Shown: positions 1 to 63,923, counted from the stretch's first letter. The stretch: 64,000 bases of DNA from Lama glama (GCA_028534125.1 CM052823.1:2604001-2668000), one strand, 5' to 3'. Made by a program: numbers and translations. Notes: a model not told the origin generated them from the letters alone.

Positions 1-560
1 TGGGCGTTGGGGCGGGGCGAGCCGCACGCCTGTTGCCATGGAGATGCCTGTGCCGTCACACAGGTCTGCCCGTCCCCCTCCACTCAGTGGTGATCCCTCT
101 GGGAGCAAAGTGGACGTACCGTTCAGAAGGTGAGTCTGCAGCGCCGGTCCTGTGCCCTGCGCAGCCGACGCGCGCATGCCGACCCCAGCTGCCCCGGATG
201 AGCCTCGCCGCCGCGCCAGCTTCCCCTGCGCAGGAGTCCCGCGGGCCCCAGCTTGAGTAACACGACCTCAGGCTCAGGAGCCGGTTCCTCGCTACGCCCA
301 GAGGCTGACTGCGGCGCTGCTCTCCTGGGAGCAGGGGGAGCTGCGGCCCAGCCCCTCCGTCTCGGGCCGGTGGGCGCAGGTGCCCCTCCAGGTGCGCGCG
401 CCCCGCACGAGGTGCTGCCGCCTGCTCCCCCCTACCCCGCTCCTGTCCAGTGTAAAGCCGCGCGGGCCGGATTCGGACGCGGTGGGCCTCCTCCACGGAG
501 AAGAGACCCCAGCGGCCAGGAGGGGCGGAGGCAGCCAAGCCCAGACGCCGCGTGGGGTCC
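1..560. promoter_or_regulatory. CpG-island-like promoter region of the candidate + strand gene
   Basis: Dense CpG; GC box GGGGCGGGGC near 9-18; X-box-like GTTGCCATGGAGAT at 32-45; NRF1-like GCGCATGC at 172-179; consensus donor AAG|GTGAGT at 129/130. Confidence 0.65.
38..129 (+). CDS. Candidate exon 1 of uncharacterised + strand gene (may be partly 5' UTR)
   Basis: gccATGG Kozak context at 38; open frame MEMPVPSHRS...VPFR; donor AAG|GTGAGT; ends in phase 2. Confidence 0.45.
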
Positions 561-1205
561 CTGCCCTGTGGCAGGAGGACCGTGGCCGTCTGGTGGAGGT
601 GGGGGGTGGGCTGTGCCCTGAGGGAGTGAAGAGCCCCCACCGTGAGAATGGGCGTGTCGTTGCTTTGCCGTAGGGGGCGCCTTGGGTGCCCTGAGGTGTG
701 AGGATGGTGCCCTCCTCCCTGGGGCCGGGATCCCTGCCTCACAGTCCCCTTTTCTTTCCCTTTATGGGGAAACATCTGTTGTCCCTCTCCTGGCTCCAGG
801 AGCCAGGCCTGCGGGGTGGGGAGATCCTGGCGTGAGGTGGGGGCCCATGGGGGAGGTCCCTCCAGTGCCCCCGGCATGAGCGGGCATTGAGAAGGGGCAC
901 CCCCGGCCCGTGTCCGAGACAGAGTGGCCTGGGCCAGCTCTGACCACGGGAAGGGCCACCCTCCTTGTCCCTGGGACCGCAAGCAGCCTGTACTTGGGAA
1001 GTCTGGACAACGACCCCCACTGCCCCAAACCCACAGGAGAATTCCAGGACACCTGGGAATTAACCTGGCGTTAATTAACGCCTGCATGCAAAGCTACATA
1101 GTGTATTTCCAAAATAAAATATTCTAAACTGTAGTTTCCTCCAGACAAACTGATTTAAAATAAGAAAATTCGGATGGCCCTGTGCTTTTCTGTGAGTCCC
1201 TTCAG

Positions 1206-1305
1206 GCTGCACAGGAACTCTTCTGTGTTGGTTGTAGAACTTCGTGATCTGATGGATTCTGAGGCAAGCCCTGGAGCTTTGGAGAGGCTGACCTGCACGT
1301 ACAAG
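1206..1305 (+). CDS. Candidate exon 2 of uncharacterised + strand gene
   Basis: cccttcag| acceptor and AAG|gtaaag donor; 100 nt, open in the phase left by exon 1 (LHRNSSVLVVELRDLMDSEASPGALERLTCTYK); in-frame ATG at 1252. Confidence 0.55.
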
Positions 1306-2860
1306 GTAAAGTGAGACATGGCCACACCTCAAACAGTGTTTTCCTTTACAGCTTGGTCAACATTGTCTTGACCTGGAGCTGTAAGTTTTGACCTGTTTTT
1401 CAGATGGCATTAAAGGACAGGGGATTGAAAAATGGAACGATATATCCACTGTGATTCCTTTTACCTTTATATCTCAGAAGAATTGTACCAAAAAGTGTCT
1501 GGTCAAAATAACACCAAGTCTGGTATGAAGGTGTCAGTCTTAAAAGTTAATCCTGGAGAAAAAAAAAAGAAGAAAGACCCACTCCTCCCACACCTGGTGA
1601 TTTGTGCATGAAAATGCAGACCTTAATGTCCCCTCGAAGGGCCTGACCATACACGGGGCAGGACGCACTTCTCTGGAGCCTCCGTCGTTGTCCCGTGTGC
1701 AGTTAGGCACGGGGGATAACAGTCTCCTGACTTCCCTTGAATCATATTTCCTGGGCACCTACCCGGGCCCGGGGACGGGAGTGGAAATGGTGAAGGCAGC
1801 CTTGGAAGGTGTCCACATCCAGGACTGTTCCTTGTCAGAGAGAGAGTGTGTGTGCACCGCTCAGGGGGTTATCTTTAGAAATTCGGCTGTCAAAGACTCC
1901 CTGCTCTCCCGGGTTCCTGGTCCAGGAAACGTGCTCAGATATTTGAAGCTTCAACCAGATCTTTATTTCAAGTGCATAGAAAACGACTTTGCCTCCTGGG
2001 AAAGCGCAGGCCATTTCCACGACTGCCGACTGGCACCTGAATTAAGGGAGTTGTCCTAGCACTTCTGGAGAAAGAGGAGTTTGAGGCCTCCTTCAGGACA
2101 GATTTTATTGTAAGGAAAGGATGCCTGTTCTTGAACTAGAATTGTTGCTTAATTGTTGAATATTGTAAAGTGAGAACTTTTTGAATGCGCTTTTCCTTTC
2201 AAGTGGGAAGTGCAAAATTGAGTTAAGCACTGACCGAGGCCAGCTTAGAGGTCCCGAGCTCTGAATCCTGAATCCCAGCGTCCCCTGCGCCTAGGTTTGC
2301 GAAGCTCCTCTTCTAAAGACCATGTTGCACCTGCTTTGTTCTTTTCTCCAGACCAATGTCCCTCTCTCCCAGCTCCTCTTCTCTCAGAAGCTGGCTCTCT
2401 GGACTTCGCCTCCACCTTCTGTCTGCGGTGCCTGCTCCTGGATGCTCCTGGACTCCAGGTAGGAACCCTCAGAGGTGGTTCAGTTGGGGACCTGGCTTGT
2501 CCCCCCAGGGCCACTTCCCCTGGGGGTGGCATCAGGGGTGGAGTGACCAGGGGCTGGAGCAGGTGCAGAGATGGGGAGGAAGCCACCCCAGTCTCTGGGG
2601 CTCTGGACTGTTTCCAGAAGGTCCTGGCCCAGTGTCTTTCCTCTTCCTGCCTTGTTGGCAGGCATTTAATTTTTATTATTATAAATTTTTTTTGCTATGA
2701 TCCAGTGTTTCACTGATGCATTAAAGCACTCTATTGACAAAGTGAATTTTTTAAATCTTCATTATGAAAATTTGCCCAGTGTTCAACTGGTAACAGATGT
2801 CAAATTACCACGTTGACCCTTTGCCATCTGGCATTTAGTACATTAACCAGCAAACGCAGA

Positions 2861-3010
2861 GGGGAGGGTATAGCTCAGCGGTAGTGTGCGTGCTTAGCAT
2901 GCATGAGGTCCTGGGTTCAATCCTCTGTATGTACATACATTCATACATGCGTACACAAACAAATAAAAATTATATCCCCCACAATCCCCCACAAAACAAA
3001 GCAAAAAACC
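2861..3010 (+). mobile_element. tRNA-derived SINE (vic-1-like)
   Basis: GGGGAGGGTATAGCTCAGCGGTAG...GGTCCTGGGTTCAATCC with A and B boxes and an A-rich tail. Confidence 0.85.
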
Positions 3011-3978
3011 CTCCCAGCAAATGATGCCAGAAGAGGCTAGTGACAGAAACAGCCTCTCACCTTCCATTTGGGCTTTTCCATCCTCTCCGGAGTGATCACA
3101 GCTGTGCGAAGCTGCGGGCCTGGTGGGCAGGAGGGAGGGGCTGGGACAGGTCGGAAGGCAGAACCAAGGACGGGCCAGAAATCGGTTTGCTTCTCCCTCA
3201 CTTTTCCACTTTAAAACCCCAGGTTACCAGGCTGTGACTTCTTGACAGCTGTGGGGTCATTCTGTGAAAATGACCTTTTCCCAGGTGGGCCCTGGAATTG
3301 TTTCTTTTTTTTTTTTATTCTGACAATATACTCAATATATTTCCTTTTATATTTTTGAAGGATACATTCTAAAACTCAGATACCGCATTGAAGAGTGATG
3401 CCTTTAAAACGTGGACCCACGCGTCCACCCAAACTGTCCTCTTCCTTTACTCTCTGTTTCTTACCAGTCAGGGTAGTTCCCGCCACGTCTCGGGAATACT
3501 GCCACTTTAAATGATTGAAATTCATGTAGCCAAAGCTGAACTCAGGATAACTTCACGCCTAACCGAGTCTTTTGCCATCCTCCGTGCTTTAGTGTTTGAC
3601 CATAGCTTCCCCTGGCCAGGAGGGGTCTCTCTCCTCCCTCAAAGAGTTGACAGCGCTGTGATCTGCTCTTGCTCTTTTGAAGTGCAGGAGAAAAGAACAG
3701 AATTCTTTAGGATCACTTTTCTCCGAGTACCAACCCTTGTACTTAATAGGGTTCCTGCGTTTCCTACAGCTGCGGTGACAAACCACCAGCCTGGGTGGCT
3801 TCACACAACAGATTTATCCTCTGGAAGTTTTTAGAGGCCAGAAGTCCGAAATCCAGGTGTTGGTTAGATGTTGCCTCTGGACTCTGTTCCAGGCCTCTCT
3901 CCAGCTTCTGGTGGCCGCTGGACACCTTGGGCTTGTGGTCTCATCCCTCCAATCTCTGCTTTCTTTTCACACCACCTC

Positions 3979-4050
3979 TGTGTGTGTGTGTGTGTGTGTG
4001 TGCGCGCACGCGCGAGCATGTGTGTGTGCGTGCACGCGCATGTGTGTGTG
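3979..4050. repeat. (TG)n/(CG)n microsatellite
   Basis: Direct observation. Confidence 0.95.
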
Positions 4051-4059
4051 AAAGCTCTC

Positions 4060-4885
4060 TTTTAAATTGAAGTCTAGTTGATTTACAATGTTACATTAGT
4101 TTCTGTCATACAGCAAAGTGATTCAGTTATACATATGTATATTCTTTTTCATATTATCTCCCATTATAGTTTATTACAAGAAATTGAATATAGTTCCCTG
4201 TGCTCTACAGGAGGTCCTTGTTGTTTATTTTATATACAGTAGTGTGTATCTGTTAGTCCCAAACTCCTAATTTGTCCACCCCTCCACTTCCCCCTCTGGT
4301 AACCATACTTTGCTTTCTATGTTTGTGAGTCTATTTCTGGTTTGTAAATAAGTTTATTTATGTCATTTATTTTTTAGATTCCACATGTGATATCATATGA
4401 TATTTGTCTTTCTGTCGACAAATATCATATATCACATGTGGAATCTAAAAAATGCACTTCACTTGGTATGATAATTTCTAGATCCAACCATTTGCTGCAA
4501 ATGGCATTATTTCATTCATTTTTTATGGCTGAGTAATATTCCATTATATAAATATACCACTTCATTGTTATCCAGTCATCTGTCAGTGGACATTTAGGTT
4601 GCTTCCATGCCTTGGCTATTGTAAATAGTGCTGCTATGAACATTGAGGTGCATGTGTCTTTTTGAATTAGAGTTTCTGTCTTTTCTNNNNNNNNNNNNNN
4701 NNNNNNNNNNNNNNNNNNNNNNNNNNNNNNNNNNNNNNNNNNNNNNNNNNNNNNNNNNNNNNNNNNNNNNNNNNNNNNNNNNNNNNNNNNNNNNNNNNNN
4801 NNNNNNNNNNNNNNNNNNNNNNNNNNNNNNNNNNATATTATTATTTGTGGACTTTTTGATGATGGCCATTTTGACTGGTATAAGG
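4060..4885 (-). mobile_element. 5'-truncated LINE-1 (3' UTR and ORF2 C-terminus)
   Basis: TTGAAGTCTAGTTGATTTACAATG 3' end; minus frame PVKMAIIKKSTNN resembles the L1 ORF2 tail. Confidence 0.9.
4687..4834. other. Assembly gap (N run)
   Basis: 148 N inside the L1. Confidence 0.99.
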
Positions 4886-5734
4886 TCTCTCTTTATAAAG
4901 ATACCTGTCACTGGATGGATTTCGGGTCCACCCTAAATCCAGGGTGATCTCATCTTGGGACCCTTAATTACATCTCAAAGACCCTTTTTCTAAATAGGGT
5001 CACAGTCAGGTTCTGGGGTTTAGGTGTGGAACTATATTTTTGGGAGGCACCATTCAACCCAGTGCACAGGGCCTCCTGGGAGAATTTTGGACAAGACCAC
5101 GTGGCATGCAGACTTCCACCCCCGCGTGGATGGGGGACACTCATTTAAAATGTCCTCTCCCAGCGGCTGGGCACTCTGCGGGACGGCTGTTGGGGCTGGT
5201 CCTGGGGTGGGCCTCCAGGTGTGGGGGGGCTGTGGGGCTGGTCCTGGAGGGCCTCTGGGTACAGGGGTGCTTGGGTTTCTCTGAGGGGTATGGCTCGATA
5301 CCAGCTAAGTGTTCACAGCATTGTTCTTGGGGGAGGACGAGGGAGGGCAGGGCTCAGAGCAGGGAGGCCACTTAGGAGGCAGAGATGAGAAAGGCAGGGC
5401 CAGGGGAGTGGGGTACATGAGTTCTGGACTCCCCGGGAAGCAGGGTCCGCATGGCTGGTCACTGGACATGCAGTTTGGAAGAAGGGCAGGGTCAGGTGAT
5501 GGGAAAGTGTTTTTAGCTTGAGCAATGGGATGCTCAGAGGTGCCCTCCACGGAGCTGGGAGGACCCCCGTGTGGCTAGTTTTGGGAAGATCAGAGGTTTG
5601 CTCTTGGACGAGTCAACTTGGAAGAACTCACAGGAGACCCCAGAGGAGGCTGTCGTGGGGGCCTGGAGTGTGGAAACAGGGCCACGGTGGGGAGGTGGAA
5701 GCTTGGGGCCAGATGGCACGTGGGTGTGGCTTTA

Positions 5735-5835
5735 TGTGTGTGTGTGTGTGAACACGGATGTTTTGTGCGTGTGCACCTGCATGGGTGTGTGCGTGTGTTT
5801 GCACAAGCACATGTGTGTGCATACACAGGTGTGTG
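5735..5835. repeat. Degenerate (TG)n
   Basis: Direct observation. Confidence 0.8.
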
Positions 5836-6541
5836 TTCTGGGCAGAGGCTGGGTGGGCAGCCAGCACTCAGGGTTAGAGCTTAATGGACAGGACTTGCAG
5901 GCGATTTGGTGGCTCTGGGCAGAGCGGTGACTTCTGGACTCTGCTTTAGGGAATGTTCAGACAAACAACAGAAGAGGATCATAATGTTCTCCCAGCTTCG
6001 AGGCAGGAAGGCCTTTGTAGACACAGTGCAGCACCCTCACGGCACCTCCAGTGCCCCCTGGAGTTGTCACCTGGGTTAGACTGTAGAGGGAGGGGGATCG
6101 GGGAGGGGGTAGCCGCACAGCCCTGGGGGTAAATGTTATCCAGCTGGTGAGAGAGGGGAGGTGGTTGTAAAGAGGCCAAAAGAGATAAGGTGCAAAGTCA
6201 GCCGGTCGCTTGGAGTGACTGAACGGAGACGGGCTGGGCGATTCACTCCGACCTCCGGGGTGGGGAAGGGGCTGGGGAGCCTCCCAGGCCCGCTTTGACC
6301 TTGTTCAGGAAGACTGGGTGGCAGGATGTGGAACCAGGTGACTGCAGTGATAAAAGGTTTGCATTCAGGTGGGTCTCCAGTGCATCTGTGCAATGACGAG
6401 TTTTTAAAGGAACTTGTAAGGGTCCAGAGGGCGGAGGGAGGAGTCTTGGGTTGTTTGGCGTGTTTGCTTGTTTGCTCTGCTCGGCCAGGGGAGGCTGAGA
6501 TCTGGCCCTGTGGGGCCCAGGATGTTTCTGGGGTGGCGGCC

Positions 6542-6567
6542 TGTGTGTGTGTGTGTGTGTGTGTGTG
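6542..6567. repeat. (TG)n microsatellite
   Basis: Direct observation. Confidence 0.95.
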
Positions 6568-7169
6568 AGTTTGTGTAGGGGAGCACAGCCACACAGCAGG
6601 GTCTAGGACCCATTTGTGCCCTTGGCTTGTGCCTCTGGGCAAATCTGTTGTTCTCAGCCCCAGTTCCCCCAGCTGCAAACTGGCAGACATGCTTAGGCCG
6701 TCTGCAAGCTTCTATCTATCTATTGAATTCCTCTTGGCGTTAAAAAGTGGTACCAGACCTACACGGAGGGACTTCATTTACTTACTGTATATCGTTTAAT
6801 AGTTTTTTTTAACCATATGCATGAAATGCCTTTTTATTTAAACAAGTATATGAGAAGTCCTTTAACCTGGTGGGGGAAATGGGGAGGAAAGGGGGAGGGG
6901 ACCTGCTTCCTCCACTTGTTACAACTTCACTTTTTGGTACTTTTATCTAAACTCAGCTGAGAGAGAGTGCTAAGTGCCTCCCAGGCTGTGCTCCTTTGGA
7001 AATCAAAATGAGGCAGGTGTGGGCCCGTCAGAGGGACTCGGGAGCCAGCTGAGTGGACGGTGCGGTATTTATAACAACCCAAGGGTGAACTGAGCACGTC
7101 CACACTGACAGGTGCGGGAGCGAGTAAGTCAGGAAGTGGGAGAACCACCCAGGCTGAGGGGCTGATGGG

Positions 7170-7240
7170 GCTGCCCCCCCACCCCCTGGGTGCCAGGACA
7201 GCTGTGCCCCACCCCCCGGGCGTCAGGACAGCTGTCCCTC
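7170..7240. repeat. ~30-bp tandem repeat, a little over 2 copies
   Basis: GCTG..CCCCACCCCC.GGG.G.CAGGACA repeated. Confidence 0.7.
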
Positions 7241-7288
7241 CTGCTTGGGGGCTGCGCACAGATGCTTCTTCCCAAGAGGGTGAGTTTA

Positions 7289-7440
7289 GGGGTAGGGGAT
7301 AACTCAGCGGTGGAGTGTGTGCTCAGCATGCACAAGGTCCTGGGTTCAATCCTCAGTGGCTCTACTAAAAAATAATAGTAATAATAAATAAATAAATAAG
7401 CTAATTATGCCCCCCTCCAAAAAACCAAAACAAAACCAAA
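7289..7440 (+). mobile_element. tRNA-derived SINE (vic-1-like) with target-site duplication
   Basis: SINE body plus AAGAGGGTGAGTT (7274-7286) and AAGAGGACGAGTT (7439-7451). Confidence 0.88.
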
Positions 7441-7539
7441 GAGGACGAGTTGGAAAGGGAGGGAAGGTGACGGTACAGGGGAGAAGTCTGGCTGGCCTGG
7501 CCAGGTGACGGACACGTCATGGTGACAGCGCGGGTCCCT

Positions 7540-7820
7540 GATGCCCTGCGGTGAGAACACAGCTCACCACCGGGTCGCACTTCCCAAGTCCCTAACCCAA
7601 GGCGTTCATGAGAAAAACGCCAGATAAATCCCAGTCGAGGCACATCTTCCAGAATATTCCTCCCAACTGTCAAGGTCACCAAAAGCAAGGGAAGTCTGAG
7701 AAACCCTCGCGGCCAAGAGGAGCTCAAGGAGACGTGAACTAAACGTAACGTGGTGTCCTGGGTGGGATCCCGGGACAGGGACCACAGGAGGGGAAACTGG
7801 TGACACCTGAGTTTGCGGAC
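7540..7820 (+). mobile_element. Ancient L1 (L1MC/MD-like) 3' fragment
   Basis: AAGGAAGTCTGAGAAAC-like segment followed by GGAGACGTGAACTAAACGTAACGTGGTGTCCTGGGTGGGATCC, resembling an old L1 3' UTR. Confidence 0.6.
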
Positions 7821-8520
7821 TTCGGTTCCTTCCTAAAAACAACAGCAACAGAAGTGGATTTCTGGTTTTTGCTGGGAACCGTTTTAGCCTTTGAAGCGCT
7901 GCTCCGTATGATGCTTTAGGGTCTGGTTTGTAGCATTTCCTGTGTCTCTGAACTTTGGCCTCAGAACGGGGGTTCCCAGGGGTGCAGGCTGGGGGGCCTG
8001 AGTTTACTTGGGGGCTGGTGTGCGGCCGGTGTGCGGTGGGGATGGGCTGATTCCCAACAGGGCGGGAGGGACGCCCGCGGATCGGAGGGCGCCGGCGACA
8101 CGGGGCTGCAGGGAGCTCGGCAGCCTCTCCTCAGCGAGTCGTTCGCTGTTTCACTTTGATGGATGGCCTCTCTCTGCTTCCCTGTGGGAACAGGTCTTTT
8201 TTCTTTCTTTTTAAATTGTTGAATGTTTTTCACAACCTTGCGCTTCTCAGGAAAACTGAGTTTATGTCATTGTGGGCAAGTCAGTCCCCGGACTCAGCTT
8301 AAATTTCTCATCTATTAAAAAACAAAGTGGGTGGAGAACATGGGGGCCGGATCGGGGCACTCCCTGCTCTAATGTTCTAGAACCTTCATGTCAGCGACGT
8401 GTGACTTTCCCATGAGTGTCTGGGTGCACAGGGGCTTTCCTCAAACTGAAGTACGGGTGGTGCAGCATCCTCCCCACCACCAGCGGCCTGTGGCTTTCCT
8501 TTTAATTAAAAACAATTTGA

Positions 8521-8645
8521 GGTGGGGAAGGTATAGCTCAGTGGTAGGACATGTGCTTAGCATGCATGAGGTCCTGGGTTCAATCCCCAGTTCCTCCATT
8601 AAAGTAAAAAATAAAATAAAAAACCCCTAATTATCCCCTACAAGA
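8521..8645 (+). mobile_element. tRNA-derived SINE (vic-1-like)
   Basis: GGTATAGCTCAGTGGTAG...GGTTCAATCCCCAG plus A-rich tail. Confidence 0.88.
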
Positions 8646-9079
8646 AATTGTTTTTTTTAAACTGAAACCTCCCTGGATTTCTCTTACTGAGCTACACCTT
8701 CCAGTAAAATTCACCCCTTTTGACAGTAGCTCTGACTTTGGACAGATGAACCCGTGGAACAACCATGGAGACAAAACAGCTCCGTGGCTTCAGAAAGTTC
8801 CCTCCTGCCCTTGTGTGGTCGGCCCTCCCCCGACCCCTTGTCACCACTGGCCTGCGCATTGTCCCTGTGAACCTGTTTTTCACTTACGTGAAAGGTCCGT
8901 AAGCAGCTGAGCCGCGGCTGGTCTGAAGTCCGGCTGACCCAGCGGCATCCAGGCGGTGTTCAGCGTGGCCAGCAGCCGGGCCGGCTTCCAGAAGGGGCAG
9001 AGAAACGCTCCGGAGACTCAAGGTACCCCTGTGGGTGGGGAGGGGCGGCCTGAGGGGTGGAAGGAGCCAGAGCCCCAGA

Positions 9080-9143
9080 GCAGACCCCATGTCCCAGAGG
9101 GCAGACCCCATGTCCCCGAGGGAAGGACCCATGTCCCTGAAGG
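9080..9143. repeat. 21-bp minisatellite, 3 copies
   Basis: GCAGACCCCATGTCCCAGAGG-like units. Confidence 0.85.
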
Positions 9144-11001
9144 CAGAACACTTGCCTGGGCCCGACCCCTCCTTGGAATTAGTCTTCTTGGTGGTTCTTG
9201 GTGTCATATCTTTTCTCTTTTCCCAGCTGGGGGGTGTTCAAATTCCTGTCCTAATCTTCTAATCTTTTGATTAAGAACAAAACAAGGGTTGTTTTCCTGG
9301 CAGCCTGGTGTTGGGGGAGGGTTCTAGAATGTCTGATGCCAGCCCTGGCCTCTTCTCGGGGACCCTGAGTGAGGCCAGGCCCCTCCCGGGGCCCCAGCTT
9401 CTGCATCTGTGCAGAAGGGTTTGGGGCGGGTAATCTTCTGGCTTTGGGTTCAGAGCAAGGACCAGGAGCTGCGTAGAGCGGGGCCCTCCAGCTCTTCCCG
9501 ACACACCAGGGACTGGACCCAGCTGCAGTCTCTCTCCTGCCGCATTCCTGGCTCTCCCAGGTCTGCATTTCAGTCCTTCAAACCAAGCCCGCAAAGCGGT
9601 CCTCGGCCTGCTCCCGGCCTTCCTCGTTGACACCCACCGCGCAGGCCCGCCACCCGCGAGTATCAGCGAGGGAGGAACCACTGGCCTGGGCTGTGGAGCC
9701 CTGTCCCTTGCCCTTGAACGTGAAGCTGCCGTCCATCCCCTTTCATAGGAAGGATTCTTCAAGCCTCCTTTTGTCCCCCCAGGCCAATTGCAAGAAGAAC
9801 CACATGGACTTTGTTGAAGGTACCTGGAGAGAGGTATGTCACAAAACGAGCCAGAAACCGCTGCTGTCTTTGGGGAAAGGTGGGAACCCCCTGAAATCCA
9901 CGATCCCATAGGCCAGCCAAGGACAACTGTGCAAGCAGCCCTTTCTAAGGAGAGCCGTCTCAGGCCTGCCCTGTGAGTATTCTCTGCCCAGCGGTGTTAC
10001 TATATTTGAGGACAAACTTCACTTTATTGAAGTTGACTGTTTTTCCTCTTTCAGATGTTTTTTTCCTCTTTCAAACTTTTTAAATTAGACAAGACTGAAA
10101 GTAGTCTGCCTTAAAGATTGACAAGACCATAGGTTTGCGATGAATCTCAATCAAAATTAAATTCACTCTCGCTGGTCACACAGGTGTAGTTAATTCTGGC
10201 CTCACGGTGGTTTGAGACACCAGGGACCACTGATGAGCTGGGCCGGCATGCTGCTCAGTCATTCCGCCCGGACCCAGTGAAGAGCTGAGCTGCCAGGCAC
10301 CCCGGGGTTAGTGAGAACCGACCCTGCTGGCTCGTCTGCAGCGTGAGGCTGGGCGCTGGGGCTTCGGGGCCTCCAGGGATGCTCACTCCTCTGCCGGGGG
10401 GGGAGGTCACCAGAACAGGTGCCCAGTTCATGAATTCCACCTGTTCTGATATGTATCTGAAATGATTACAGCTGCCTGTAGTGTATGGTGATCATTTTCA
10501 CTTTTACCTTCTGGAATAAATGTGTCCACCATCCAAAGAGGAAAGAGCTCTCTCGGGAGCTTCTCATCCAAGTGAAAGGCCCCCAGGGGTCCCTGCTGAC
10601 TCTGCCCTGGGGTCCTCTCCGTGTGTATGACTGAGGCCGTGGGTCAGTGGGGTGGGAAGTGCCTGGAGGTGCACCCACGTGGAGTCGTGTGGATCCACCC
10701 CATGGCTTGCCAGTCTTCCCGGGGCCCTGTTAGCACTTCTGGAAGGAGCCCCAGTGCAGCTCGGGGTTGCCCATGGTTACCTGGACATGGTGCTGATGAG
10801 CTGCGGGCACTTTAGCTTTCCAGCCAAGCCCCTCAGTCCAAAGCACTGACTCAGGGGTAAAAGAAAGATCATTTGCAGGGCAGATCAGGCAAAATTTGTG
10901 TGTCAGTGGTGGAAGAAATACGTTATGCACGTAAGGGGTGTGTTCTATTTTATTCTTCTGCTGGAGACTGCTGGCTGGCTCAGAAGCGCTTTTGTCGTCA
11001 G

Positions 11002-11496
11002 TTCTTAGATCCTTACGACGGTGATTCGGAAGACACGCCCAGTCACTTCTCCTGCGGTTTCAATGACTGCTCTCTGGGTGACGTGAACTATGTGTCTCTG
11101 CACGCGCTCACATCCAGGAGTCCAGGGGAAGTGAGCCCCGAAGACCCCCTCTCACCGAACATCCCTGTCCTGGTGCTGCCAGCCGCCAGCTGGGACCCTG
11201 CATCCCTGGAGGCCAGCGACGTGGACATGCAGCCTGTGGGCACCAGCAGCCTGGAGGCGCAGGGGCGGGCAGCCAGGTTTCCCAGACCCTCAGCGGACCC
11301 GAGGATGATGGAGGAGGACCGGGCCCCCCCCCCGAGACTGGCAGACACACACCAGGCAGAGCCAGAGTGTCCTGGCCGCCACCCAGGCTCAGGACTGAGG
11401 AGAGGGGGCCCCAAGCTCTCATTCTCCAAGAGGAAACTGGAACTCTTACTTGCTGAGCTTGAGAGAAATAAGAGAAAGCAGCAGTATGGGGCCTAG
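11002..11496 (+). CDS. Main coding exon of uncharacterised + strand gene (possible orthologue of mouse 1700001K19Rik, by position only)
   Basis: Part of the 207-aa ORF 10873-11496 in non-repeat sequence. Phase-0 acceptors at 10983/10984 and 11001/11002 fit exon 2. Acidic Ser/Pro-rich body, basic C-terminus, donor GAG|GTGAGC at 11502/11503. Confidence 0.6.
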   Translation, partial: FLDPYDGDSEDTPSHFSCGFNDCSLGDVNYVSLHALTSRSPGEVSPEDPLSPNIPVLVLPAASWDPASLEASDVDMQPVGTSSLEAQGRAARFPRPSADPRMMEEDRAPPPRLADTHQAEPECPGRHPGSGLRRGGPKLSFSKRKLELLLAELERNKRKQQYGA

Positions 11497-13690
11497 TCCG
11501 AGGTGAGCGGAACCAGCCTGGCCCTGGGTGCGGGGTGGGTGTTGCCTTGACGGGAGTTTGGGCCTCAGGGGTCGGAACCGAGGCTGATGAACATGAAAAG
11601 AAGCTTCAGTGGAACACTTGGCCCCTTTTATATCTCTTTTTAAGGGTTTGAACAACAGAAGTTCACTGTCACCGTTGGGGAACTGAAAGCCTGAGGTTAA
11701 GGTGCCAGCAGCAGGCATCTTCAGCGCTGTCTCTGGGTCCCACCTCCCCGGACCCTAGTGTCCGCACTTTCACTAAATATTTGTGTATTTTTGTAAACCT
11801 TGACGCGGGGAGCGGGGTGGTTGGGGGCCCGGTGCTCTGTAGCTGGCCTGGGTCTTGGCTGTGGTTCTTGTCTGCCCCCCCCCCCACCGGCGATTTTCAC
11901 CCACAGCTGCCTCCAGTGGAGGGGGAGGGTCGTGCTCTCGGGGCTGATGAGAGGGCTGTTTTGTAAGAACATTGAAAACAACTGGGCCCCAACTGGACGC
12001 GGAGGTGGAGGCCAGGCCGAGGGCCGGCTCGGAGCAGAGGATGTGGTTGTGGGGGACCCTCCCCGGAGCAGCCCGGGACCTGGCCCTCGCACAGACGCCG
12101 CCTCCGCCCCCGCAGCCAGTCCTGCGCCCCCCGACGCGGGGTTTCCTGAGCAGGGCGTCCCCGGTGGGCAGATCCTGCCATCCTGCCTTAGCGTTCCTCT
12201 GGGTAACAGCTGAGAAGGTGGGGTGGGGGGCGGGCTCGCTTTCCTTCTTCCTTCTCACTGAGCCTTTTACAAACTTCCAGGCAGGGAGGCACGGAGCCGA
12301 GTCTGGAGCAGAGACCCTCGCCATGGCCGCCATGCAGGAGCCCGCTGTCCCGAGAGCCAGTGAAGGGGCGTCCACCAAGGAGAGGTGCGCCTGTCCTGCT
12401 GCTCACAGCCAGGTGGCTCTGCCAGGGCACTGGGAGGTGGGGGTGGACCAGCTGGCCCGGCGGGTGCTGTCCATGCTCCCGACCTCCTCTGTCCCCCTGC
12501 CAGCTCTGCCTGGTGAGGCCCACCATCCACCTGGACCCTCCTGTGGCAGGTGAAGGTGGTCCGACGTGGGTCCGCCTTGGGCCCCATGGACTGAGCTCGG
12601 GTTGGGGTGAGGCTGGGGGGCAGCAAGTAGGGGTCTCGGGCCCTCCTCGTGGTCAGCGTGGACCCTCAGCAGGGAGCCTCAGTCCTGGGCCTGCGTTGCC
12701 CCCTCCCCTGCCCCGCCACTTGGAAGGCGGTGGGTGAGGGTCTGGCTCCTGCCCTCTGGGCTGAAGCCAACGCCTCCCTCTTGGGGGCCCCCGCGTCCTG
12801 CCCGGTGGGCTTTCAGGGTTTCCAGGACCGCGTTCCCTCTGCATCCGGAACCCCTGCTGGGCCCACACAGGTCTCTGCGCCGGGCCCCTCACCTGTGAAT
12901 GGGGCAGGGGTGGAAGGGTCAGGTGGGGATGCGTGCCCACGAGCTTTCTGTGGGCCCCCCTCAGCACCCCCAGCTCTCAGCTGAGCGCCTACAGCCCCAT
13001 TCAACACTCCCACTGACTCAAGAAAAGCTAAAAAGCCTCATTTACTGGTTCGGAGAAAGACATTTTTCAGTCGAATATGGTTTTGGACTGCTGTCAGGCC
13101 ACCAAGGGACCCCAGAGGGAACGTCCCAGGACCGGGTGGGAGGAGGCTCTGACCCTAGCTCAGGCCCCCAGGACGCCACGGGAAGCCACTGGGCTCTGGG
13201 GCCGGGGGGCAGGGCTTGAACGTCCAGGGCCTCAGAATGTCCTCCTGGTGGCCAAGCTTGGTTCCCAGACAGCCCCCAGCCCACCAGCAGGATGAACAGG
13301 CTTTTATTGTAGGGTCTGTGCCAGGGCCTGGGCCGATCACCCGTCAATCCTAGGAGCTCTTGCGAAGCACAGAAAGGCCAGAAACCTGTTTCACGGGGAA
13401 CAGTTCCGGCACCTCCACCCAGAACAAGTAGTCAGCTGACCCGCCGCCTCTACCTGCCGCCACCCCGGGGCCCCTGGGAATGAAGGCGCCAGGGAGGAGG
13501 CGGACGGGAGACACAGAAAGTGCCGCTTGGTTCCACCCTCGGGCAGCAGGGCTGCCGGCTCCGGCCCTGGGGGTGCTGGTCACAGACCCAGGCCGGGCAA
13601 TGTGGCTGCCTCTCTGAATGTGAAGGGTCCCTGGGTTCCTAGTAAGAGCTGGAGCAGAGACAGACGCTGGAGCCAGGTCATGCTTAGTGT

Positions 13691-13696
13691 TTTATT
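13691..13696 (-). terminator. DYNC1H1 proximal polyadenylation signal AATAAA
   Basis: TTTATT on the + strand, ~205 nt past the stop codon; the first canonical hexamer I found in the 3' UTR. Confidence 0.8.
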
Positions 13697-13901
13697 CATA
13701 AAACAAGCCGTGCCATCGACCCGCAAAAACACGTATGGTGTCCCTCCTGTCCCCACCACTCCAACTGCCACACTCTGTCTGGCTTCCTCTGACCTCACAC
13801 TGAAGACTTTGCTCTGATAAGTCCATACCTTCCAACACTTAATAATAAACACGTGTTAAATATCAAGTTGTACTGTTACAGAAAGGGGGCGGGGACGTGC
13901 T

Positions 13902-63923
<50,022 letters not shown>

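What the first reader, a model, noticed from the sequence alone, without database searches (positions are those of the whole stretch)
38..11502. Hidden spliced + strand gene convergent with DYNC1H1, encoding an uncharacterised ~228-aa protein
Seen in sequence: three segments join in one stop-free frame using canonical sites. They are 38-129 (gccATGG start, AAG|GTGAGT, phase 2), 1206-1305 (ttcag| ... AAG|gtaaag, phase 2 to 0) and 11002-11496 (gtcag|, phase 0). An alternative phase-0 acceptor at 10984 adds 6 aa. The product reads MEMPVPSHRSARPPPLSGDPSGSKVDVPFRRLHRNSSVLVVELRDLMDSEASPGALERLTCTYK|FLDPYDGDSEDTPSHFSCGFNDC...SKRKLELLLAELERNKRKQQYGA. A shorter 182-aa form could start at ATG 1252. The ORF track misses the first two exons. 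From memory, mouse has the poorly studied 1700001K19Rik tail-to-tail with Dync1h1 on the Hsp90aa1 side, and I recall no human coding equivalent. Orthology is an inference from position only. I recognise no domain.
Basis: partly seen in the sequence, partly recalled or inferred. Interest (0 to 1): 0.75.

Follow-up and report, generated by a model that had tools for sequence, protein, structure and literature searches.

The report
Decaying camelid copy of orphan gene
This is the camelid-like copy of an uncharacterised gene found from amphibians to mammals (mouse 1700001K19Rik); its normal start exon is broken, so it is likely a still-transcribed pseudogene, and the proposed 228-residue protein is probably not its real product.

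Summary
The three segments join stop-free into 228 aa, and the last exon is the orthologue of mouse 1700001K19Rik. The gene model is wrong in the middle. Exon 8746-9022 holds the normal placental start, and it is broken here: GCG for ATG, a TGA, and a frameshift. The relative shares the start loss and frameshift and has its own frameshift in the last exon. A conserved 25-residue motif of the last exon is out of frame in both.

Exon 38-129 has no coding support.

Best reading (0.6): a transcribed unitary pseudogene. Main rival (0.3): a shortened 174-199-aa protein from ATG 9804 or 1252. The family protein is predicted disordered, with an NLS-like tail and no Pfam match. I found no paper on its function.

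The parts
1..500 (.). CpG island, likely promoter and first exon region
   Evidence: GC 0.72, CpG obs/exp 0.79; promoter role inferred
32..45 (+).
   Evidence: only match in the window with 1 mismatch, but 30 of 100 shuffles have one; a lead only
38..129 (+). exon 1 (5' end unknown), likely non-coding
   Evidence: homologous stretch read in other frames in sheep P0067 and fin whale P0080 models; no match to non-placental N-termini
1206..1305 (+). exon 2: ancient N-terminal coding exon, ATG at 1252, open, phase-0 donor
   Evidence: top hit of 2395 six-frame pieces for a profile built only from turtle, axolotl and bilby (E 0.002); starts predicted isoforms in horse, hyena, tree shrew
2208..2250 (+). 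decayed relic of the ancient third coding exon (C-x-V/I-E-S-S-T), acceptor lost, frame broken
   Evidence: best window hit, E 0.28, 8 of 9 residues as in bilby; present in 23 of 24 non-placental proteins tested, 0 of P0001-P0146
2352..2458 (+). exon 3, likely 5' UTR
   Evidence: its tail is the loose end at 8743 in RNA runs X11 and X4; read in different frames in horse, sheep, whale, panda, hyena models
8746..9022 (+). exon 4: normal placental start exon, disabled. Start position 8914-8916 reads GCG, TGA at 8935-8937, 109 nt to the donor (out of frame)
   Evidence: spliced 9022 to 9783 in runs X11 and X4
9783..9833 (+). exon 5, 51 nt, phase 0-0, open; in-frame ATG at 9804
   Evidence: 15 of 17 residues identical to horse; 52 of 112 homologues map here
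11002..11502 (+). exon 6, last coding exon, stop 11494-11496, donor after 11502; alternative acceptor at 10984
   Evidence: 55 homologues
11334..11412 (+). segment between two compensating frameshifts; the conserved motif lies in another frame
   Evidence: median score against 48 orthologues 61 in the shifted frame, 26 in the open frame
11645..11701 (+). 3' UTR exon (ends approximate), spliced on to about 12281-12287
   Evidence: joints 11501-11645 and 11703-12287 in runs X11 and X4
13691..13904 (-). stop and 3' UTR of the convergent dynein heavy chain gene
   Evidence: gene name recalled

Best explanation
The locus is the orthologue of mouse 1700001K19Rik, its normal start exon (8746-9022) is broken, and it is likely a transcribed unitary pseudogene that makes no working protein in this camelid-like lineage. 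The gene has had two starts: an ancient one in exon 1206-1305, used from amphibians to marsupials, and a later one in exon 4, seen in marsupials and dominant in placentals. In placentals the ancient route decayed (its next exon is a relic at 2208-2250) and exon 2 became 5' UTR. In the camelid ancestor the exon-4 start was then lost. The RNA is still spliced exon 3-4-5 in a relative; on that path ATG 38 and ATG 1252 open only an upstream ORF that stops at 8749. Where intact, the protein is inferred to be a disordered nuclear protein acting through short motifs (an acidic FLDPYDGDSE motif, a C-terminal bipartite NLS-like tail), probably in male germ cells. Shown: homology, exon map, lesions, splice joints in the relative. 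Inferred: absence of protein, order of events, cellular role.
For: Exon 4 lesions in the window. The relative shares the frameshift (0 gaps in three contigs over 8743-9023, same donor) and cannot have ATG there (the contig covering 8743-8922 has one unlisted difference; two would be needed). The relative has its own 1-nt loss at 11011 in 3 of 4 runs, with the matching loose end in the fourth, and loses the DVDM motif. The P-R-L-G-x-E-R-D motif is in 46 of 48 orthologues and out of frame here. Window-specific changes include P to L at a column invariant in 48 of 48 and K to Q in the basic tail, which then fails a pattern met by 47 of 48. 11 of 15 listed substitutions against the relative are non-synonymous, dN/dS 0.9-1.2, which rejects 0.3 (P 0.009). 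Exon 6 differs from the relative by 24/490, an intron by 36/817. Among placentals exon 2 is no better conserved (11-12/18) than UTR exon 3 (25-26/35), against 15/17 for exon 5 vs horse. No named hit is from a camelid.
Against: Exons 2, 5 and 6 are open with canonical splice sites in this genome. The two frameshifts in exon 6 compensate, and two further indels against the relative are multiples of 3. FLDPYDGDSED and KRK are kept. Outside the shifted segment the window departs at only 2 conserved columns, within the range of intact orthologues (0-7 of 42). dN/dS does not reject 0.5 (P 0.09), rests on 15 listed substitutions, and intact orthologues also evolve fast: pig-warthog 0.11 against window-relative 0.12 changes per column; the shared stem (0.11) is not long. 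A horse model joins exon 2 straight to the last exon (P0146) and a tree shrew model joins it to exon 5 (P0092). No RNA of the window's own species was laid, and nothing was laid on 1-8699.
Confidence: 0.6

Rival explanations
1. Rescue by the ancient start: after losing exon 4, this lineage makes a 199-aa (exon 2-5-6) or 182-aa (exon 2-6) protein from ATG 1252; only the relative lost the gene.
For: ATG 1252 aligns with the start of turtle and axolotl isoforms (P0188, P0181, P0191). 18 codons to a phase-0 donor in window, horse, hyena and tree shrew. Both chains are open. Compensated frame keeps the tail.
Against: Exon 2 drifts at UTR-like identity among placentals and the H-K-Y motif is changed. 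The next ancient exon is a relic. Joints seen in the relative include exons 3 and 4; no exon-2 tail among 24 listed loose ends (8 not shown). The horse, hyena and tree shrew records are predictions.
Confidence: 0.15
2. Truncation: the normally spliced mRNA is translated from ATG 9804 in exon 5, giving 174 aa that keep the acidic motif and the basic tail.
For: It is the first ATG reaching the C-terminus on the exon 1-2-3-4-5-6 path; exon 5 is well conserved.
Against: Seven upstream ATGs precede it. The canonical 9833/11002 joint was not seen in the relative; joints into 11002 came from 9972 and 10306, or the intron was retained.
Confidence: 0.15
3. One reading: a 228-aa (or 245-aa with exon 5) protein from ATG 38.
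For: Open frame, canonical sites, strong start context; that exact chain is open in 1.2% of shuffles.
Against: No homologue for the 38-129 peptide; three species read the stretch in three frames. Some chain of 60 aa or more arises in 15.6% of shuffles. ATG 38 sits in an X-box-like motif.
Confidence: 0.05
4. The RNA is kept as a functional non-coding or readthrough transcript between HSP90AA1 and the dynein gene.
For: Spliced RNA persists; the mouse gene is a read-in gene of Hsp90aa1 after heat shock (PMC7249449, figure legend).
Against: Exon 6 diverges like introns; cryptic donors and intron retention suggest loose splicing.
Confidence: 0.05

Closest known systems
Mouse 1700001K19Rik / LOC66323 (XP_006516211.1) and cattle MGC152337 / LOC786914 (NP_001092671.1)
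   Same: Homologous exons 4, 5 and 6 in the same order and phase; same acidic, DVDM and C-terminal motifs.
Uncharacterised non-placental homologues: bilby LOC141506378, turtle LOC120403789, chicken LOC423462, axolotl XP_069493859.1
   Same: N-terminal exon matching 1206-1305, FLDPYDGDSE motif, KRK...RKK tail.
   Different: They keep the C-x-V-E-S-S-T exon, a relic here. Bilby has both starts as separate isoforms.
Predicted isoforms XP_008526789.1 (Przewalski's horse X4) and XP_006160058.2 (tree shrew)
   Different: Computational predictions; domestic horse models also keep an intact exon-4 start (P0144).
Unitary pseudogenes of testis genes, e.g. human TEX21, TSSK5, CYCT (PMC2864566)
   Same: Lineage-specific disabling of a gene intact in mouse.
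   Different: This gene was not found in that paper's searchable supplement; protein loss here is not proven.

Membership tests
1700001K19Rik orthologue family | sequence homology of the last coding exon | tested here: met
   55 hits, best named 60% identical, E 3e-39
1700001K19Rik orthologue family | same exon order and phases (exons 4, 5, 6) | tested here: met
1700001K19Rik orthologue family | position between HSP90AA1 and DYNC1H1 | tested here: inconclusive
   dynein side seen; HSP90AA1 lies outside the window and no genome is held; mouse side from PMC7249449
1700001K19Rik orthologue family | FLDPYDGDSE motif and KRK | tested here: met
Intact placental form of the gene | ATG and open frame in exon 4 | tested here: not met
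Intact placental form of the gene | P-R-L-G-x-E-R-D motif in frame, full basic tail | tested here: not met
Unitary pseudogene | disabling lesions in a gene intact in outgroups | tested here: met
Unitary pseudogene | neutral evolution of remaining exons | tested here: inconclusive
   dN/dS about 1 on 15 sites, but intact orthologues are also fast
Unitary pseudogene | no functional paralogue in the genome | not testable with these tools
   no genome held
Unitary pseudogene | no protein made from any isoform | not testable with these tools
   needs ribosome profiling or proteomics

The most novel reading that the evidence does not exclude
After losing the placental start exon, this lineage fell back on a start exon as old as tetrapods (ATG 1252), skipping the dead exon, and kept its nuclear-localisation tail through a pair of compensating frameshifts: an atavistic rescue of a gene that its sister lineage and, independently, simians lost.
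Probability: 0.15. Interest if true: 0.65.

Novelty: new member of a known kind. Interest (0 to 1): 0.35.

Why it matters
The gene itself is annotated in many vertebrates, so it is not hidden. What this adds is its history: a domain-less gene kept from amphibians to mammals, with two successive start exons both still readable in this window, and probable independent losses in camelids and simians. Repeated loss makes it a candidate for linking a likely germ-cell gene to reproductive traits. If the ancient start is in use, it would be a clear case of gene rescue by an old exon.

Tried and rejected
No domain or fold: Pfam gave 0 families for 7 proteins and two sub-threshold chance hits among 9; PDB sequence searches gave one hit each at E 0.85 and 3.6. 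Two AlphaFold models had mean pLDDT 54 and 50 and were nearly all coil, so no fold search was run. ESM Atlas named rows (DUF4694/TNT 0.84-0.86, SPIDR fragment 0.82-0.84, RNF111_N 0.76-0.77) are below 0.9: leads only.
My first reading that exon 1206-1305 was chance was dropped.
Exon 3 as the ancient third exon: rejected; the relic lies at 2208-2250.
RFX2 target: the mouse gene name was absent from 4 supplementary files of PMC4498915 (2 .doc files unreadable); the supplement of PMC4745085 could not be read. The X-box stays a lead.
Literature: 7 papers hold '1700001K19Rik'; none for the cattle, chicken or horse identifiers; 'LOC66323' gave only beetle papers. One term was a recalled guess at a rat name and its hit is not used. 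The gene name was absent from the searched supplements of PMC2864566 (1 file) and PMC6886504 (9 files, 2 not searched).
No whole genome; no earlier findings. Absence of cover or of a joint in contigs is not evidence of absence.

Full report
Observation. The segments 38-129, 1206-1305 and 11002-11496 have canonical splice sites and join into a stop-free 228-aa frame; the acceptor at 10984 adds 6 aa. The dynein heavy chain ends on the - strand at 13902-13904, 2.4 kb away (name recalled). In 2000 shuffles of the upstream exons that exact chain stays open in 1.2%, but some chain adding 60 aa or more appears in 15.6%.

Identity. The last exon finds 55 proteins, all named ones mammalian, including mouse LOC66323/1700001K19Rik. 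A profile finds 112. The cattle member has the RefSeq accession NP_001092671.1 and starts MAGLR. A tree of 22 last-exon sequences puts the window and an unnamed relative (P0001) together inside Cetartiodactyla (99/98), apart from pigs, whales and ruminants (the shifted segment was masked). The window carries tRNA-Ala-like repeats; SINEBase names vic-1 as a simple SINE of camels (PMC3531059, passages). 'Camelid' is therefore an inference; the match of these repeats to vic-1 is recalled.

Exon map. Of 112 homologues, 44 map to 8880-9030, 52 to 9770-9840, 91 to the last exon, 6 to 2290-2470, and 2 each to 1-135 and 1200-1312. So the placental N-terminus is encoded at 8914-9022 and 9783-9833. In the window the start position reads GCG, codon 8 is TGA, and the exon is 109 nt from start position to donor.

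RNA. Eleven runs on record as RNA hold part of exon 6, at a share of 0.17; 4 runs from 4 studies were laid as contigs on 8700-13600 (one of the four is RNA by guess). They come from a relative about 95% identical. Two runs show the tail of exon 2352-2458 joined at about 8746, the joint 9022/9783, and 3' UTR joints after 11501 and 11703. Joints into 11002 came from 9972 and 10306 in one run; another retained that intron. No exon-2 tail was among 24 listed loose ends (8 not shown). The relative has no gap over 8743-9023, so it shares the frameshift; it has CGA instead of the TGA; and the contig over 8743-8922 has only one unlisted difference, too few to restore ATG. It lacks one base at 11011 in 3 runs, with the matching loose end in the fourth. 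Contigs give no strand or level, and some runs are labelled only as reproductive-system samples, so testis expression is not shown. On the full exon 1-6 path, ATG 38 and 1252 stop at 8749 and the first ATG to reach the C-terminus is 9804, giving 174 aa.

State of exon 6. About 11334-11412 lies between two compensating frameshifts: the other frame scores a median 61 against 48 orthologues, the open frame 26. P0001 has the same shifted peptide. The window departs at 9 of 42 conserved columns (7 in the shifted part), the relative at 13, intact orthologues at 0-7. Of 15 listed substitutions in the first 100 codons 11 are non-synonymous (one indel-linked row dropped; the table was cut): dN/dS 0.9-1.2, rejecting 0.3 but not 0.5. 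Ten amino-acid differences polarise to the window, six of them clearly, and five to the relative. Against decay: pig and warthog differ as much as window and relative, and the shared stem is not long.

Deep history. A search of 1.84 billion representatives (41 hits), cluster names and a third profile search (165 hits, 120 listed) extend the family to marsupials, echidna, turtles, crocodile, birds, salamanders, a caecilian and a frog. The following ancient exon, in 23 of 24 non-placental proteins, survives as a broken relic at 2208-2250 (E 0.28). Bilby has isoforms with either start. By pattern, 48 of 238 fetched proteins use the ancient exon (7 placental: five horse records, hyena, tree shrew) and 91 use exon 4. 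One horse model joins exon 2 directly to the last exon (P0146). The 38-129 peptide matches none of 7 N-termini convincingly (best P 0.047 of 21 tests), and its ATG is the centre of an X-box-like motif (consensus in PMC2375033, passages).

Other losses. No named row or 59 is from a camelid, monkey or ape. P0054 and its cluster begin with an Alu-like peptide (recalled) and leave the family frame after about 40 residues, which fits a simian pseudogene; this is indirect.

The protein. No Pfam family, no PDB relative, and two models almost wholly disordered. Invariant or nearly so across 49 tetrapod sequences: FLDPYDGDSE and KRK...EK-RKK. From established knowledge the tail resembles a bipartite nuclear localisation signal and the acidic motif a CK2-type site, so a motif-driven nuclear protein is the most likely role. 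A germ-cell role rests on recall that RIKEN '1700' clones are from testis, and on the X-box lead.

Literature. Seven papers mention the mouse gene (listing). I read passages of three: a read-in gene of Hsp90aa1 (PMC7249449), a map marker (PMC2266908) and an expression table row (PMC2174938). None of these describes a function; the other four were seen as listings only. Searches for the cattle, chicken and horse identifiers found nothing. Unreadable supplements of the RFX2 papers could bear on the X-box lead.

Verdict. Observation confirmed; orthology confirmed; gene model mostly wrong. New member of a known kind; interest 0.35.

Noticed in passing
window 12283-13850: RNA contigs of the relative run from the 3' UTR acceptor near 12285 to beyond 13599, and a + strand AATAAA at 13844 lies inside the dynein 3' UTR, so the two genes' 3' ends may overlap. 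Contigs are unstranded, so dynein readthrough fits too.
   Followed up: no
P0092, P0116 (tree shrew): Both tree shrew models lack the exon-4 N-terminus and have a degraded FLDPYDGDSE motif; a third loss, or a switch to the ancient start, is possible.
   Followed up: no
window 8527-8598, 18275-18347, 26307-26378: ARAGORN calls three tRNA-Ala genes that are copies of a tRNA-derived SINE.
   Followed up: partly
window 4687-4834: Assembly gap of 148 N in the intron between exons 3 and 4.
   Followed up: no
window 9972 and 10306: Cryptic GT donors in the intron before exon 6 are used in one RNA run of the relative.
   Followed up: no
P0162 cluster; ESM Atlas: Feature look-alikes below threshold recur for both seal and turtle proteins: DUF4694 (TNT), SPIDR N-terminal fragment, RNF111_N.
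   Followed up: no
No fish or lizard name among listed hits; 45 of 165 hits were not listed, so the family's outer range is open.
   Followed up: no
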